Shown here one piece after another: positions 2,166 to 61,379 of a stretch of 62,446 nt of DNA. Where the stretch lies: the NCBI GenBank assembly GCA_022784065.1, contig JALFUO010000047.1, forward strand, positions 1 to 62,446, in the 5' to 3' direction. The notes beneath the pieces were generated by a model. It worked only from the letters and a program-made list of their open reading frames with translations, was not told where the DNA came from and searched no databases. Each line of letters opens with the position of its first letter. Position 1 is the stretch's first letter. Origin of the DNA: Bacteroidales bacterium. Lineage in GTDB: Bacteria; Bacteroidota; Bacteroidia; Bacteroidales; Bacteroidaceae. Position numbers and translations under genes: made by a program.

Positions 2166-2224
2166 GTGGGCGATATGGTTGCCGGGCTGATGTTGTCTGC
2201 CGCGTTGCAGCGGCTGCGCCCGAG

Positions 2225-2276
2225 CTTCGTTTTAGCATTATTTTTGAGAGGTTGCAAGCAGTCAAATCTTTCCTCT
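2225..2276 (-). ncRNA. SAM-II class riboswitch
   Basis: Minus strand AGAGG-AAAGATTTGACTGCTTGCAA-CCTCT-CAAAAATAATGCTAAAACGAAG matches the SAM-II pattern (P1, GAUUU..UUGCAA, AAAU..GCUAAAA); upstream of metK. Confidence 0.85.
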
Positions 2277-2291
2277 GTCTGTTTTCGCCTG

Positions 2292-4368: not shown

Positions 4369-4713
4369 TCAAAGCACGGCAGCAATCTTGCGGATTTTAT
4401 CCAAGCGTTGCATAAAAGATTGATCTTTTTGGGCACACCGCACATTATACCTCATTTGCAGGCGTAGCAGCGGTTCTGCCTCCACACCGAGAGCTGCCTC
4501 AAACATCAAGGCCGTCTTCTCGGTTATAGGCCGGCGAGCGTTGAGTATCTCATTCAGCACCGAGTAGCCTAAACCCATTTGTTCCGCAAGGCGACGCTGA
4601 GAAATGCCCCTGAACTCGATTTCGTCTTTAAGTATCGAACCCGGATGCGTCGGATAGGCGGGCTCGAGGTTGTTTGCTATCATTTTTGGGTCAACTCCTT
4701 TAATTTCTACCAT
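4369..4713 (-). CDS. higA: HigA family antitoxin (HTH XRE)
   Basis: PTHPGSILKDEIE...SQRRLAEQMG...LNEILNARRPIT; downstream of HigB-like toxin. Confidence 0.9.
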   Translation of the reverse strand: MVEIKGVDPKMIANNLEPAYPTHPGSILKDEIEFRGISQRRLAEQMGLGYSVLNEILNARRPITEKTALMFEAALGVEAEPLLRLQMRYNVRCAQKDQSFMQRLDKIRKIAAVL

Positions 4714-4719
4714 AATCCG

Positions 4720-5034
4720 TTATTTGTAATGATTTGACAAATCCGTTATATTGCATATCGTCGCTATTATTTCGCCGTCCCTGATATGCTCTTCAAACTC
4801 TATTCGATATTGGTCGTTTACGCGCACAGAAGAAAGCCCTGCTCTGTTGCCTATGAGCTTTTCGTAATTCAAAGAATGGTAGCGGCAAAGCCCGCGCGTG
4901 TTTTCCGTGTCCCTCATCAAGTCTATCACGCGAATGTACTTGCGCACGATTTGCGGCTGAAAGCGGTGCTTCTTGTCAGTCTTGCCTGTTTCGTAGAGTT
5001 CTTTCAGATATTCCTCATTGAAAATTATTTCCAT
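4720..5034 (-). CDS. higB: HigB-like RelE/ParE family toxin
   Basis: Start taken at MEIIFNEEYL; LNYEKL.G.RAGLSSVRVNDQYRIEF; toxin-first order; TAACTTTG at 5060-5053. Confidence 0.88.
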   Translation of the reverse strand: MEIIFNEEYLKELYETGKTDKKHRFQPQIVRKYIRVIDLMRDTENTRGLCRYHSLNYEKLIGNRAGLSSVRVNDQYRIEFEEHIRDGEIIATICNITDLSNHYK

Positions 5035-5231
5035 AAAGTCTCCTTTGCTGGGCAAAGTTAACGATTTCTTTTGAAGTTCGCAAAAATAGCGAACAACCGT
5101 TTATTTCTTCCTTGCAGTAGCGCCGCTCATACGTGACCGCAGAAATTTCAAGCAAGATATTTTTTACTAAGCCCGTACTATTTTTCCCTGTCTGCGCAGA
5201 AAGTTTTTCCTTTCCTATAAGACAATTTTTA

Positions 5232-5309
5232 TTACAAACTTTGTAACACATGTTAGAAACTTTTTAACGCGCGTTACAAAGTTTGTAATGCATGTTAGAA
5301 AGTTTGTAA
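5232..5309. repeat. 21-bp-period palindrome array, copy 1 (4 x TTA[C/G]AAAnTTT[G/T]TAA with 6-bp spacers)
   Basis: Units at 5232, 5253, 5274, 5295; spacers CACATG, CGCGCG, TGCATG; TCTGCGCAGA at 5191. Confidence 0.95.
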
Positions 5310-5574
5310 CAAAAACTTTCAAGGAGATAATGAAAAATGTCTGCGCTGAGAGGGAAAATTTGCAGGCGGCAAATAAGATTTTTTCGGCAGGAACGAAAGG
5401 CCGTCTGCCGTGAGCGCATCGGCGGCCTGCGCAGATAGTTGCTCCACACTGCCTTTCGAGAGAAAAAAAGCGGCAGAACGCGCCTTTCTGCTAAGATAAT
5501 AGGTAAAAGCCGCAACGGCAAAGGTGTTTTTTGCTTAATTTTGCAACAAAACTTATCTATATACAGCCCACACG

Positions 5575-18033: not shown

Positions 18034-18219
18034 AACGCTTTTATCTTTTTACCTTATCATACTGCAAAGTTAGTTATTACTATCAAACGGGTAAAAGCAA
18101 ATAGCAACAACTTAGTATTATTTGCCCACGAATTTCTGCGAATTTCTGCCTCAAAAAGGCATTTGCTTACGGCAAAAGCGTATTTCCTTATAAGAAATTG
18201 CTAACTTTGCGCTTCGGAA

Positions 18220-18497
18220 ACGGTTCATTTATAAGATTAATAGGGAAACGGGTGCAAATCCCGTGCAGTCCCGCTGCCGTGAGTCCCGTTATTTCGCCGG
18301 TCTATTCTTTTTATTAGTAAACAAGTAGACAAGTTTGTAAGTAAACAAGACAAGTCACTGTTATACAATTCTGTCTCGTTTACTTGTCTACTCTTTTTAC
18401 TCGTTTACTAAAAATTAAAAGATCACGCCACTGTTTGGATCAAGCAAGCCAAACGGGAAGGCAAGGCCGATGCGGGGACGAGCCGGAAGACCTGCCG
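18220..18497 (+). ncRNA. Cobalamin riboswitch containing an inserted ~96-bp repeat
   Basis: AGGGAAACGGGTGCAAATCCCGTGCAGTCCCGCTGCCGTGA, GCCACTG (18427), GGGAAGGC (18455), GAGCCGGAAGACCTGCC; TAACTTTG at 18202-18209; upstream of TBDR. Confidence 0.92.
18315..18410. repeat. 8-bp-period inverted-repeat element (GTAAACAA/GTAGACAA family), copy in riboswitch
   Basis: TAGTAAACAAGTAGACAAG...CTCGTTTACTTGTCTAC...CTCGTTTACTA; near-identical to 38105-38204. Confidence 0.9.
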
Positions 18498-18570
18498 CCA
18501 TTCCATCAAATTCTCAATTATTTACACCTCTATCCCTTCGAGGAAAGGGTAGGGGACAACTCTTACAACT

Positions 18571-20641: not shown

Positions 20642-20899
20642 GGCGGGCTGAAAGCCCAACTGCTGCCCATAGCCCAGGGCAACGCCCTGGGGTAAACGTA
20701 TGCAGCGAGCAATACATTCGGCATTTTTGCGCACGCAAAAATGCCACGCGCCTTGAGCGCGTAACAAGTACGCAATGCCGCGGGGCGTTGCCCCTCATAA
20801 TGAAGGCTGCTCTTTCAGAGCGTGACACTTTAATCAATGCATTACCCCACCCAGGGCGTTGCCCTGGGCTATGAGCAACAACTGGGCTTTCAGCCCGCC
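20642..20899. mobile_element. Non-autonomous palindromic element (REPIN/MITE-like) between btuB and btuG-like genes
   Basis: Terminal IRs GGCGGGCTGAAAGCCCA..CATAGCCCAGGGCAACGCCCTGGG / CCCAGGGCGTTGCCCTGGGCTATG..TGGGCTTTCAGCCCGCC. Confidence 0.8.
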
Positions 20900-20950
20900 C
20901 AAAAAACAGAAATATCTTATAAATTATCAACCCTAAAAACCTATTCAACA

Positions 20951-22039: not shown

Positions 22040-22064
22040 TGATTATTTGTTTGGGTCGCAAGGA

Positions 22065-22220
22065 GTAGGGGCGTTTTTAATAATGTCGGCTGCACTCGGC
22101 AATTAGAGCAAGCTCTATTGCACTCGCTTGCACGCCATTTGCAAAACGCCCGGATAATGGTTGCCTAATTGATGTGTGCCATTCGGTGCACACGGCGGGC
22201 GTTTTGCAAAACGCCCCTAC
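22065..22220. repeat. Inverted pair of GTAG-type REP sequences, left copy interrupted by a ~62-bp palindromic insert
   Basis: GTAGGGGCGTTTT[insert]GCAAAACGCCC ... GGGCGTTTTGCAAAACGCCCCTAC. Confidence 0.85.
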
Positions 22221-22846
22221 TTTCTCACCCAAACCTTGTGCGTCCCTTTGCCCTCCGTGGCGAAAGGACTTTCGGGGTCGTTGGTAATAGCTTTCAATTC
22301 CACCGAGGCGGCGGTGCGGCTCAGGTTGTTGAGGCGGGCGTAGTCTTCAATGCGCATGAATTTGTGCGCGTCGATATGCGCCAACGCGCGGGCGATGCGC
22401 TCTTCCAGCGAATAGGGCGATACCGAGAGTTTCTTGACGCGCACTTCTTCATCGCGCTCAAAATGAGCATTGCGCTTCACCTCGCCGAGTAGTCTTTCGG
22501 AAACACGGAAATTCACTTTCTTAGGCACTACGTGGCGATAGAGCAGCGGGTCGTCATCGGAGGACAGCTCCGTAGGTTTGTCGTCGTCAAAGCCAATAGA
22601 AAGGGAGAACGTGCCCAGCCCGTCAATACGCACGTTGTGCCCGTCAGCCAACTCCATTGCCAGCGTTTGTGCCAGCGCATCGAGCGCGGCGCGCAGGATA
22701 TTGGGCTGAATGGAGGTGCTGTAGTGCGACATGAGCTTTACCAACTCATCGGTTGAAAGCGTGTGGTGGCGCTTCAGCTTCGGGAAAACATTGCGCCGGC
22801 CCGACTTATGAATATCGGGCATCTCTTGAAGTACGAATTTTGTCAT
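22217..22846 (-). CDS. HU/IHF-related DNA-binding protein with C-terminal extension (Bacteroidetes HU-like family)
   Basis: LADGHNVRIDGLGTFSLS...VNFR HU-like core; C-terminal DYARLNNLSRTAASVEL possible HTH. Confidence 0.8.
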   Translation of the reverse strand: MTKFVLQEMPDIHKSGRRNVFPKLKRHHTLSTDELVKLMSHYSTSIQPNILRAALDALAQTLAMELADGHNVRIDGLGTFSLSIGFDDDKPTELSSDDDPLLYRHVVPKKVNFRVSERLLGEVKRNAHFERDEEVRVKKLSVSPYSLEERIARALAHIDAHKFMRIEDYARLNNLSRTAASVELKAITNDPESPFATEGKGTHKVWVRK

Positions 22847-22922
22847 AAGATGAGTTTTTGAATAAGGCAGGAAGTTTTTCTTTCGTGCCTTATAATTTTA
22901 TTATTCTTTGAGATAATCTTTA

Positions 22923-23000
22923 TTCAAAACTTTGGAATGTATATTCAAAACTTTGGAACGCTTATTCTAAACTTTGGAATATATGTTCAAAAGTTTAGAA
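22923..23000. repeat. 21-bp-period palindrome array, copy 2, variant unit TTC[A/T]AAAnTTT[G/A]GAA
   Basis: Units at 22923, 22944, 22965, 22986; spacers TGTATA, CGCTTA, TATATG. Confidence 0.93.
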
Positions 23001-23238
23001 CAAAAATTTTCGCTGCAATAATAAGAATTTTCAAGCACCCGGCAAAAAGTTTCTCGGAGAGAAGACAAAATATATAGGGAGAAAGCTTTGACTGCCGCGC
23101 AGCAAGTTTTTATAAAAATATGTGCAAAGCATTTGTTCAATATAAATAATATACATATTTTTGCCTTGTAGTTTTTAGAAACACCTTTTTGTGCGAAATT
23201 TTGCCCTATTTTATCACAAATATAAATCAGAGATTATC

Positions 23239-61024: not shown

Positions 61025-61147
61025 TCCATAAGAGAGTCCTTTCATTCTGCGCAGACGGTATTGCCGCCTGCGCAGTTTTTTTATTACCTCGGAGCTATTT
61101 CTTCCTTGCTCCAAGCAATTTTTCACTATCTGCGCAGATAATTTTTA

Positions 61148-61225
61148 TTACAAAGTTTGTAACAAGCGTTACAAACTTTGTAATACGTATTAGAAACTTT
61201 GTAATATGTATTACAAACTTTGTAA
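61148..61225. repeat. 21-bp-period palindrome array, copy 4
   Basis: Units at 61148, 61169, 61190, 61211; spacers CAAGCG, TACGTA, TATGTA; TCTGCGCAGA at 61046, 61129 and CCTGCGCAGT at 61067. Confidence 0.95.
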
Positions 61226-61379
61226 TAAAAATTATTTTAGCAGATAGGAAAAAATATCACGGGCTTAGGGAAGAATTTCCCCTTGATAGTAAAAAATATA
61301 AAGGAGATAATATTGGCGGCATAGGCAGATAGTTGGAATTAAAGCACTAATTTTGCAGAAAAGAAAAACGGAAGAAAGT

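What the first reader, a model, noticed from the sequence alone, without database searches (positions are those of the whole stretch)
5232..5309. Dispersed family of 4-unit, 21-bp-period palindrome arrays (four copies in 62 kb)
Seen: at 5232, 22923, 41336 and 61148 there are exactly four 15-bp palindromes (TTACAAAnTTTGTAA consensus) separated by 6-bp spacers, each array 78 bp. Nine of 12 spacers are perfect pyrimidine-purine alternations; the other three are CGCTTR or its reverse complement. The copies are ~18-20 kb apart and lie in divergent, convergent and tandem intergenic contexts, so they are not simple operators of one regulon. 21 bp is two helical turns, placing all sites on one DNA face. 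Inference: a cooperative protein-loading platform (chromosome organisation near the origin) or the core of an undescribed mobile element. I do not recognise it as a named element.
Basis: partly seen in the sequence, partly recalled or inferred. Interest (0 to 1): 0.85.

Follow-up and report, generated by a model that had tools for sequence, protein, structure and literature searches.

The report
Evenly spaced docks for HU-like protein
An Alloprevotella-like gut bacterium carries about 90 copies of a 250-base palindrome array spread evenly along its chromosome, one per 20-25 kb; arrays of the same build sit in front of most genes examined for a little-studied HU-like winged-helix protein of Bacteroidales, so they are likely that protein's docking sites and likely help fold the chromosome.

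Summary
Each 78-bp core lies inside a ~250-bp dyad: 4 arm units, 4 core units and 4 inverted arm units, all 21 bp. The genome holds 92 sites, none inside called genes. They are spaced far more evenly than chance (gap CV 0.38 vs 0.85; 0 of 5,000 shuffles). Two sister species show the same evenness; another repeat in this genome does not.

The likely binder is HU-HIG-wHTH (HU domain plus winged helix). Both copies of the gene in this genome sit directly behind an array, each behind its own sequence type. Across seven Bacteroidales families, 51 of 67 such genes have a phased palindrome array upstream, against 0 of 72 downstream and 0 of 18 HU genes lacking the winged helix. The 21-bp period maps to one branch of the protein tree.

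Best reading: an autoregulatory operator amplified into a chromosome-wide lattice of fixed-size nucleoprotein anchors. Binding and function are inferred, not shown. It fails tests for MITE, dif and centromere, and lacks some REP/BIME hallmarks. I found no paper describing it.

The parts
5232..5309 (.). Core 1: four type-A 15-bp palindromes at a 21-bp period
   Evidence: an orthologous core is present in all 4 sister genomes
5148..5393 (.). Whole element 1: 4 left arm units + core + 4 inverted right arm units
22923..23000 (.). Core 2: four type-B palindromes; likely operator of the HU-HIG-wHTH gene, whose start lies 115 bp from the core centre
   Evidence: type B kept in front of all 4 orthologues
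22839..23084 (.). Whole element 2; its arm units reach the start codon of the HU-HIG-wHTH gene
22217..22846 (-). Gene for P0001, 209 aa: HU-HIG domain (PF18291) plus C-terminal winged helix; likely binder of type-B cores. Its paralogue P0002 (53-54% identical, G000:C71:5400-6026) sits behind a type-A core.
41336..41413 (.). Core 3, type A, between convergent genes
41252..41497 (.). Whole element 3 (outermost left arm unit is weak)
61148..61225 (.). Core 4, type A, between tandem genes
61064..61309 (.). Whole element 4

Best explanation
The arrays are 250-bp elements of twelve 21-bp units, kept at even 20-25-kb intervals across the chromosome, and are likely the binding sites of the HU-HIG-winged-helix proteins, likely serving as a lattice of architectural anchors for the nucleoid. 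Steps: (1, shown) a four-unit phased palindrome array precedes most HU-HIG-wHTH genes examined, with a sequence private to each gene. (2, inferred) Each HU-type homodimer presents two winged helices that read the half-sites of one palindrome, while the HU body bends the A-tract and flexible pyrimidine-purine DNA; four dimers load side by side on one face of the helix. (3, inferred) In front of its own gene the array acts as an autorepression operator. (4, shown) In this clade the operators of the two paralogues were copied to about 90 or more sites and are held at even spacing. (5, inferred) The arms extend the complex to a fixed ~250-bp footprint that bends or wraps DNA and marks off ~20-kb loops or topological units.
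For: Gene-array link: both HU-HIG-wHTH genes of G000 are the two closest of 92 array-preceded genes among 1,458 called genes (115 and 137 bp). P0001 has a type-B core and P0002 a type-A core; this holds for all 4 P0001 orthologues and for the 1 P0002 orthologue with upstream DNA assembled. 51 of 67 full-length homologues with at least 300 bp upstream have a phased palindrome array (score >=0.55), against 0 of 72 downstream regions and 15 of 233 control upstream regions. 0 of 10 HU-HIG genes without a winged helix and 0 of 8 classical HU genes have one. All 27 genes with a 21-bp array fall on one side of a single branch (99/93); the other 25 have 22-23-bp arrays. Motif similarity tracks recognition-helix identity after removing HU-domain identity (partial 0.23, 0 of 1,000 permutations, 52 genes); in the 21-bp class rho is 0.41 for the winged helix and 0.10 for the HU domain. 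A prediction held: the G070 'gamma' array type led to a full-length gene directly behind one copy. Arrays also precede homologues in Bacteroides finegoldii, Parabacteroides distasonis (2) and Phocaeicola massiliensis (4 of 4, read by eye). The Bacteroidetes -7 promoter box (motif recalled) occurs in 28 of 51 upstream regions against 6.9 expected, in 22 of them within 90 bp of the array. Protein: AlphaFold model pLDDT 86, HU fold (4FMR E 7e-6) plus winged helix. Selection: fixed unit positions differ at 7 of 832 sites in 26 orthologous pairs, against 1,636 of 12,021 four-fold degenerate sites. Spacing: CV 0.38 vs 0.85, smallest gap 5 kb, longest free stretch 38 vs 57 kb, each 0 of 5,000; G076 CV 0.44 (P 0.0014) and G094 CV 0.29 (P 0.0012); a control repeat with 57 copies has CV 1.19. 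Long gaps stay rarer than under exclusion-only nulls of 5-15 kb (P <= 0.002), which points to selection for coverage. Footprint: arms have 4 units on 124 of 172 sides. 11 of 12 assembled right ends of an IS3-family element lie 99-152 bp from a core centre, 10 of them at 108, 129-131 or 150-152, in 21-bp steps just outside the last arm unit.
Against: No binding or function was measured. 16 of 67 homologues lack a scoring array, including G025's and all 3 examined from family f137. The 67 include near-identical kin, so permutation values overstate. Within the 21-bp class the helix-motif partial correlation is weak (0.13, P 0.09). Even spacing is not general to cognate arrays: G070's 'alpha' arrays, which have a cognate gene, are uneven in the 400 kb read (7 copies, CV 1.04). 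Its evenly spaced 'beta' arrays (11 copies, CV 0.40, P 0.002) have no cognate full-length gene in that 97%-complete genome; nor do arrays seen in G016. Other proteins may therefore serve such arrays. G094 keeps many type-A cores but no P0002 was found; its contig starts at the downstream neighbour, so this is undecided. No exact -7 box lies near G000's own two genes. The arm motif also occurs without cores in other genomes, so arms may bind a second protein. Only 8 of 150 order-level genomes had a strong homologue, so the role cannot be universal. Burroughs et al. (PMC5499826, section 10 read) argue that HU-HIG proteins are unlikely to be sequence-specific transcription factors.
Confidence: 0.5

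Rival explanations
1. Self-marking system. The same protein binds the arrays, but the lattice tags host DNA every ~20 kb so that unmarked incoming DNA is excluded or silenced (Chi-like logic). An arms race would drive the fast turnover of protein and site.
For: Long gaps are selected against. Array sequences are private to each gene and lineage; cross-genome searches found only each genome's own type, apart from one similar pair. PMC5499826 (section 10 read) proposes a conflict role for HU-HIG from its rapid diversification.
Against: No effector gene was seen linked to either gene. A 20-base core stretch had 0 matches in the viral contigs, so there is no sign of mimicry (few phages of this host may be held). 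Many genomes carry only about 10 copies.
Confidence: 0.2
2. Parasitic operator. Arrays spread by gene conversion or recombination and are merely tolerated; protein-mediated exclusion between neighbours (like target immunity) produces the spacing.
For: A young subfamily shares both arms at >=90% identity at unlinked loci. Copies are gained and lost between sister species. Exclusion of 8-12 kb alone reproduces the CV (P 0.08-0.47).
Against: Exclusion alone does not reproduce the lack of long gaps (P <= 0.002). No fixed ends or uniform target duplication. Fixed positions are far more conserved than neutral sites (conversion between copies could contribute).
Confidence: 0.12
3. Large regulon or titration sink. 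The arrays regulate neighbouring promoters or buffer the free protein level.
For: Operator-like position at the cognate genes. 22 of 62 classified sites lie between divergent genes, against 73 of 352 available gaps.
Against: 9 of 62 sites lie between convergent genes. Neighbouring genes share no family or function beyond the HU-HIG pair. Neither a regulon nor a sink needs even spacing.
Confidence: 0.1
4. Site-specific recombination arrays. The 6-bp spacers flanked by inverted arms act as dif-like crossover sites that shuffle the genome.
For: Spacer geometry resembles tyrosine-recombinase sites (recalled). The central base flips C<->G at 19 of 104 positions, against 251 of 9,643 at neutral sites. 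Junctions holding an array are non-collinear in 12 of 20 cases, against 12 of 99 others.
Against: G000 has only 4 tyrosine recombinases, none next to an array. Only 1 of 78 orthologous spacers was inverted. The synteny breaks are confounded by IS3 insertions that break contigs at arrays. The linked gene is an HU-wHTH gene, not a recombinase.
Confidence: 0.08

Closest known systems
HU-HIG clade, wHTH-fused subclade (Pfam PF18291; Burroughs et al. 2017, PMC5499826; PDB 4FMR is the Ig-fused relative)
   Same: P0001 and P0002 are members: PF18291 E 6e-18 and 8e-18, plus a C-terminal winged helix.
   Different: The paper reports no DNA site ('upstream' and 'palindrom' have 0 occurrences in its main text) and judges the clade unlikely to be sequence-specific. 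Here each gene has its own phased array. Its supplements were not read.
REP/BIME of enterobacteria, with IS1397 (passages of PMC1525189 read)
   Same: Dispersed intergenic palindrome mosaics proposed as nucleoid-protein sites, and targeted by an IS3-family element.
   Different: AT-rich 15-bp units with fixed number and phase, no preference for convergent gaps, even spacing, a dedicated cognate protein, and the IS lands at the element's edge rather than inside a palindrome.
MatP/matS, Noc/NBS and SlmA/SBS (recalled)
   Same: A lineage-restricted DNA-binding protein with dozens of chromosomal sites and a chromosome-scale role.
   Different: Those are single short sites confined to, or excluded from, the terminus region. 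Here 12-unit phased arrays tile the assembly evenly and the site sequence changes from gene to gene.
BrickBuilt MITE of Porphyromonas gingivalis (PMC4596501; abstract and first ninth of the text read)
   Same: Bacteroidales intergenic element built on a 21-23-bp period.
   Different: BrickBuilt has 19 copies, 1 to 22.8 direct repeats, and leader and tail with inverted ends. This element has a fixed four-palindrome core, dyad arms and no fixed ends.
Plasmid centromeres and iterons (parC/ParR, sopC, RepA iterons; recalled)
   Same: Phased repeats two helical turns apart, often doubling as the binder's own operator.
   Different: One locus per replicon there; about 90 chromosome-wide here. No partition ATPase or Rep gene was seen beside either gene.

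Membership tests
HU-HIG (wHTH subclade), for the protein | HU-HIG domain | tested here: met
   PF18291 65 bits against a cut-off of 26 for both paralogues; top Foldseek hit 4FMR
HU-HIG (wHTH subclade), for the protein | C-terminal winged helix | tested here: met
   Residues 142-208 align to winged helices, best Z 9.6, rmsd 1.6, 58 residues
MITE (incl. BrickBuilt) | Fixed terminal inverted repeats | tested here: not met
   Conservation fades past +-125 bp; among the 45 closest of 92 near-identical arm pairs printed, homology ends 84-264 bp from the core edge
MITE (incl. BrickBuilt) | Uniform target-site duplication | tested here: not met
   8-mers at the edges in 5 of 84 copies (0 in the control zone), at varying offsets and mostly arm motifs; 5-mers 28 vs 22
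MITE (incl. BrickBuilt) | Clean empty sites in relatives | tested here: not met
   At the 7 of 11 loci inspected where G000 lacks the array, much of the intergenic gap is replaced; species-level comparison only
REP/BIME | Intergenic palindromes in mosaics | tested here: met
   0 of 92 sites inside called genes
REP/BIME | GC-rich stem-loop units, favoured at gene 3' ends (recalled) | tested here: not met
   AT-rich units with a 1-base centre; 9 of 62 sites convergent vs 48 of 352 gaps
REP/BIME | Associated Y1/RAYT transposase | not tested
   No RAYT family search was run
Xer/dif sites | One or few copies at the terminus, two distinct non-overlapping arms (recalled) | tested here: not met
   92 copies; symmetric arms shared between adjacent spacers
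parS/parC/iteron centromere | Clustered at one origin-proximal locus | tested here: not met
   Even genome-wide spread
MatP/Noc/SlmA-type systems | Bias towards or away from the terminus | tested here: inconclusive
   103 contigs, 85% complete; no hole over 38 kb, but origin and terminus were not placed
MatP/Noc/SlmA-type systems | Demonstrated binding by a dedicated protein | not testable with these tools
   Inferred from linkage and co-variation only
Zalpha / Z-DNA binding | Asn and Tyr in the recognition helix, prolines in the wing (passages of PMC2632926 read) | tested here: not met
   Fold match Z 9.3, tied with SelB and IdeR; the helices of P0001 and P0002 hold no Asn or Tyr and the wings no Pro
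Rfam RNA families | Match at gathering score | tested here: not met
   Only two riboswitches in the window, neither at an array

The most novel reading that the evidence does not exclude
A new kind of bacterial chromosome organiser: a sequence-specific HU derivative whose own operator was multiplied into an evenly spaced lattice of ~250-bp nucleosome-like anchors, one per ~20 kb. Protein and site co-evolve rapidly from lineage to lineage, as centromere proteins and satellites do, possibly as a self-mark against foreign DNA. The same pairing could account for the unexplained 21- and 22-bp four-palindrome families noted in other Bacteroidales.
Probability: 0.45. Interest if true: 0.92.

Novelty: categorically new. 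Interest (0 to 1): 0.82.

Why it matters
It gives a DNA target, readable directly from sequence, to a Bacteroidales protein family whose function was open and which was thought not to be sequence-specific. Each gene carries its predicted site upstream, so dozens of natural protein-site pairs are available at once, including pairs in culturable P. distasonis and B. finegoldii. That offers a recognition code and possibly orthogonal repressors. If the even lattice folds the chromosome, it would be a sequence-encoded ruler for bacterial loop or domain size, a long-open question, testable with one ChIP-seq and one Hi-C experiment. I rate it categorically new because it failed at least one defining feature of each DNA-element family I could test; the function itself remains inferred.

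Tried and rejected
Core pattern in 60 drawn relatives: 0 of 60. The genus-wide search found many copies in only 4 of 147 genomes, the tight sister clade (gidA 86-95% identical; next 76%), one copy in G077 and arm-like fragments in five more. A planned search for the bare arm architecture in relatives was not carried out; variants with other core sequences were looked for only by de novo periodicity scans of fetched stretches.

Orientation to replication or transcription: none (45 vs 39 with skew, 17 vs 14 with tandem genes, 12 vs 13 between neighbours). DUF6078 and DUF6261, leads from earlier notes: not found in G000 (85% complete, and the DUF6261 control rang nowhere). LysR-type binder, considered for the T-N11-A geometry (recalled): 2 genes in G000, neither directly at an array. 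tRNA/tmRNA: none in the window. Single-sequence fold of P0001 failed (pLDDT 35).

Complex prediction of four P0002 copies scored 0.73 against a best control of 0.00 (mark reached by 20 of 30 solved pairs and 1 of 23 single chains; contacts agree >=88%; partner pLDDT >=76). The confident interface is one HU-domain pair only, likely from likeness to solved HU dimers, and no dimer-dimer contact was named. RNA contigs cover parts of the P0001 gene in 4 of 4 metatranscriptomes laid, but DNA carry-over was not excluded. Phage records: 1 of 50,697 holds a weak homologue. The alignment-based viral search could not run.

Literature: searches found no description of these arrays or of an HU-HIG binding site; only PMC5499826 was listed with the term HU-HIG. 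The library lacks most subscription papers.

Full report
Observation. They are far beyond chance: profile scores 85-138 against a best of -85 in 100 shuffled windows. The window is contig C52 of G000 (2.23 Mb, 103 contigs, 54% G+C, 85% complete). Of the records listed, one genome sharing the core is titled Alloprevotella sp. and four Bacteroidales bacterium; the best-holding sequencing runs are mostly pig-gut metagenomes.

Anatomy. A scan of G000 found 86 complete cores and 6 partial ones. Of 89 not cut by a contig end, 84 have four units. Cores are all type A in 74 of 86, all type B in 5, and mixed or ambiguous in 7. Conservation continues about 84 bp each side as 21-bp arm units with A/T tracts, inverted about the centre; 124 of 172 sides have four. 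The element is thus a ~250-bp dyad of twelve units. None lies in a called gene; 31 are in tandem, 22 in divergent and 9 in convergent gaps (crude gene calls of my own). Orientation is unrelated to GC skew, gene direction or neighbours.

Spacing. The 28 within-contig gaps run from 5 to 34 kb (mean 19 kb, CV 0.38). Placing 92 sites at random in intergenic gaps gives CV 0.85 and a longest free stretch of 57 kb against 38 kb observed; 0 of 5,000 trials reached the observed values, and stricter gap sets agree. A second dispersed repeat in the same genome (57 copies) is clumped, CV 1.19. Stretches of two sisters repeat the result: G076, 18 arrays in 378 kb, CV 0.44; G094, 15 in 346 kb, CV 0.29 (uniform null, parts of the genomes only). 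An exclusion rule of 8-12 kb reproduces the CV but not the absence of long gaps (P <= 0.002). Both crowding and holes are therefore avoided.

Evolution. High copy numbers occur in only 4 of 147 other genomes of the genus, the closest clade. In 26 orthologous pairs, fixed unit positions differ at 7 of 832 sites against 14% at four-fold degenerate sites. Spacers change at near-neutral rates but mostly by transitions (48 of 58 changes), and the central base flips seven times faster than neutral C<->G (pairs were selected on one spacer type). Units switch between A and B within the same arms, which points to conversion between copies. There are no fixed ends, no uniform target duplication and no clean empty sites. 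An IS3-family element, identified from full copies in two relatives, has 11 of its 12 assembled right ends 99-152 bp from a core centre, in 21-bp steps just outside the last arm unit. I read this as an indirect footprint of a protein complex covering the whole element (inference); REP-targeting IS1397 is the precedent (PMC1525189, passages).

The candidate binder. Three of G000's six HU-family genes adjoin arrays. Two encode ~209-aa HU-HIG proteins with a winged helix. They are the two closest of 92 array-preceded genes: P0001 behind the type-B core at 22923, and P0002 behind a type-A core. I then read the upstream DNA of homologues: 51 of 56 genus matches and 28 of 37 order-level matches outside G000. 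These gave 74 full-length genes; 7 were dropped for short upstream DNA. Of 67, 51 carry a phased palindrome array within 350 bp, each with its own sequence; 0 of 72 downstream regions and 15 of 233 control upstream regions do. Six of seven families are represented among the positives. HU-HIG genes without the winged helix (0 of 10) and classical HU genes (0 of 8) have none. The period follows the protein tree: all 27 genes with 21-bp arrays lie on one side of one well-supported branch (midpoint root, rows without a scoring array left out). Motif similarity follows the recognition helix more than the HU domain, strongly over all genes and weakly within the 21-bp class. A -7 promoter box lies within 90 bp of the array in 22 of 51 genes, as expected for an autorepression operator. 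Cognate arrays are dispersed in other lineages too: about 40 loci in G070, 9 in G088, 10 in G020 and about 28 in G246 of another family (BLAST-limited counts).

Against. Binding is not shown. G070's cognate 'alpha' arrays are uneven in the 400 kb read, while its even 'beta' arrays have no cognate gene found; G016 has arrays but no full-length gene; G025 has the gene without a scoring array; P0002 is missing from G094's assembly at a contig break. So the gene-operator link is strong (my estimate 0.85), while the claim that this protein imposes or uses the even spacing is weaker. Arms also occur without cores and may have their own binder. How new copies arise is unexplained; conversion or recombination between copies is my best guess.

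Mechanism. Shown: anatomy, conservation, even spacing, gene linkage, period-clade match. Inferred: an HU-type dimer reads each palindrome with two winged helices and bends the flexible DNA; four dimers sit on one face; the arms extend the complex to ~250 bp; the gene represses itself; and the lattice partitions the chromosome into ~20-kb units (0.5 overall). Rivals: self-mark (0.2), tolerated parasite with exclusion (0.12), regulon or sink (0.1), recombination sites (0.08).

Comparison. The protein belongs to the wHTH subclade of HU-HIG. Burroughs et al. 2017 (PMC5499826; passages and section 10 read, supplements not) thought the clade unlikely to be sequence-specific and proposed a conflict role. 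The DNA element works like matS, NBS or SBS sites and like BIMEs, but fails defining features of MITEs, REP/BIME, dif and centromeres. Searches found no description. Earlier notes of this scan describe similar four-unit arrays in other Prevotellaceae with an unknown binder; a look-up for an HU-HIG link found none. Verdict: real, under selection, probably new in kind; interest 0.82.

Noticed in passing
G000 contig ends C1, C9, C10, C19, C40, C42, C53, C66, C86, C90, C98; full relatives in L129, L132: An IS3-family element inserts, always by the same end, just outside the arrays' last arm unit in 21-bp steps. In relatives it sits beside other 21-22-bp repeats.
   Followed up: partly
L234-L253 (G070:C1:1-400000): At least five different four-unit array types coexist. 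The 'beta' type is evenly spaced but has no cognate gene found; the 'alpha' type has a 188-kb hole.
   Followed up: partly
L153:14600-14720 and L152 (G016): Four-unit 21-bp arrays, one with the same TTAC/GTAA boxes but A/T-rich spacers and G+C-rich centres, in a genome with no full-length HU-HIG-wHTH gene found.
   Followed up: partly
L013-L015, L024, L025; G000:C25:1110; G070:C1:365426: Arm-like units occur without a core, which suggests the arm motif has its own history or binder.
   Followed up: no
G000:C27:3246, C55:21324 and C55:21544: Three 22-bp four-unit arrays; one matches the array in front of a third HU-HIG-wHTH paralogue in G076 (L218) that was not found in G000's assembly.
   Followed up: partly
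window 22040-22215 and 20800-20900; G000:C71:6070-6345: A G+C-rich hairpin repeat family (~270 bp, 57 copies counted from the C71 copy) is clumped rather than even and often breaks contigs; used as the spacing control.
   Followed up: partly
L055 against G000:C95:35039-36632: A sister species lacks G000's array but has one 1.5 kb away, as if the site had moved by one gene.
   Followed up: partly
G000:C95:347-950: A classical HU gene also adjoins an array, on its 3' side.
   Followed up: no
window 4369-5055: HigB/HigA toxin-antitoxin pair next to element 1; the DNA left of the element differs in two of the four sister species.
   Followed up: no
window 2222-2281 (-) and 18204-18513 (+): SAM-II long-loop and cobalamin riboswitches (Rfam).
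   Followed up: no
G077:C38:7329-7463 (L011): A single complete element in a distant member of the genus, a possible horizontal transfer or binning error.
   Followed up: no
window 22803-22998, run X17: One RNA-run contig changes strand inside the type-B core: an inversion or a palindrome artefact.
   Followed up: no
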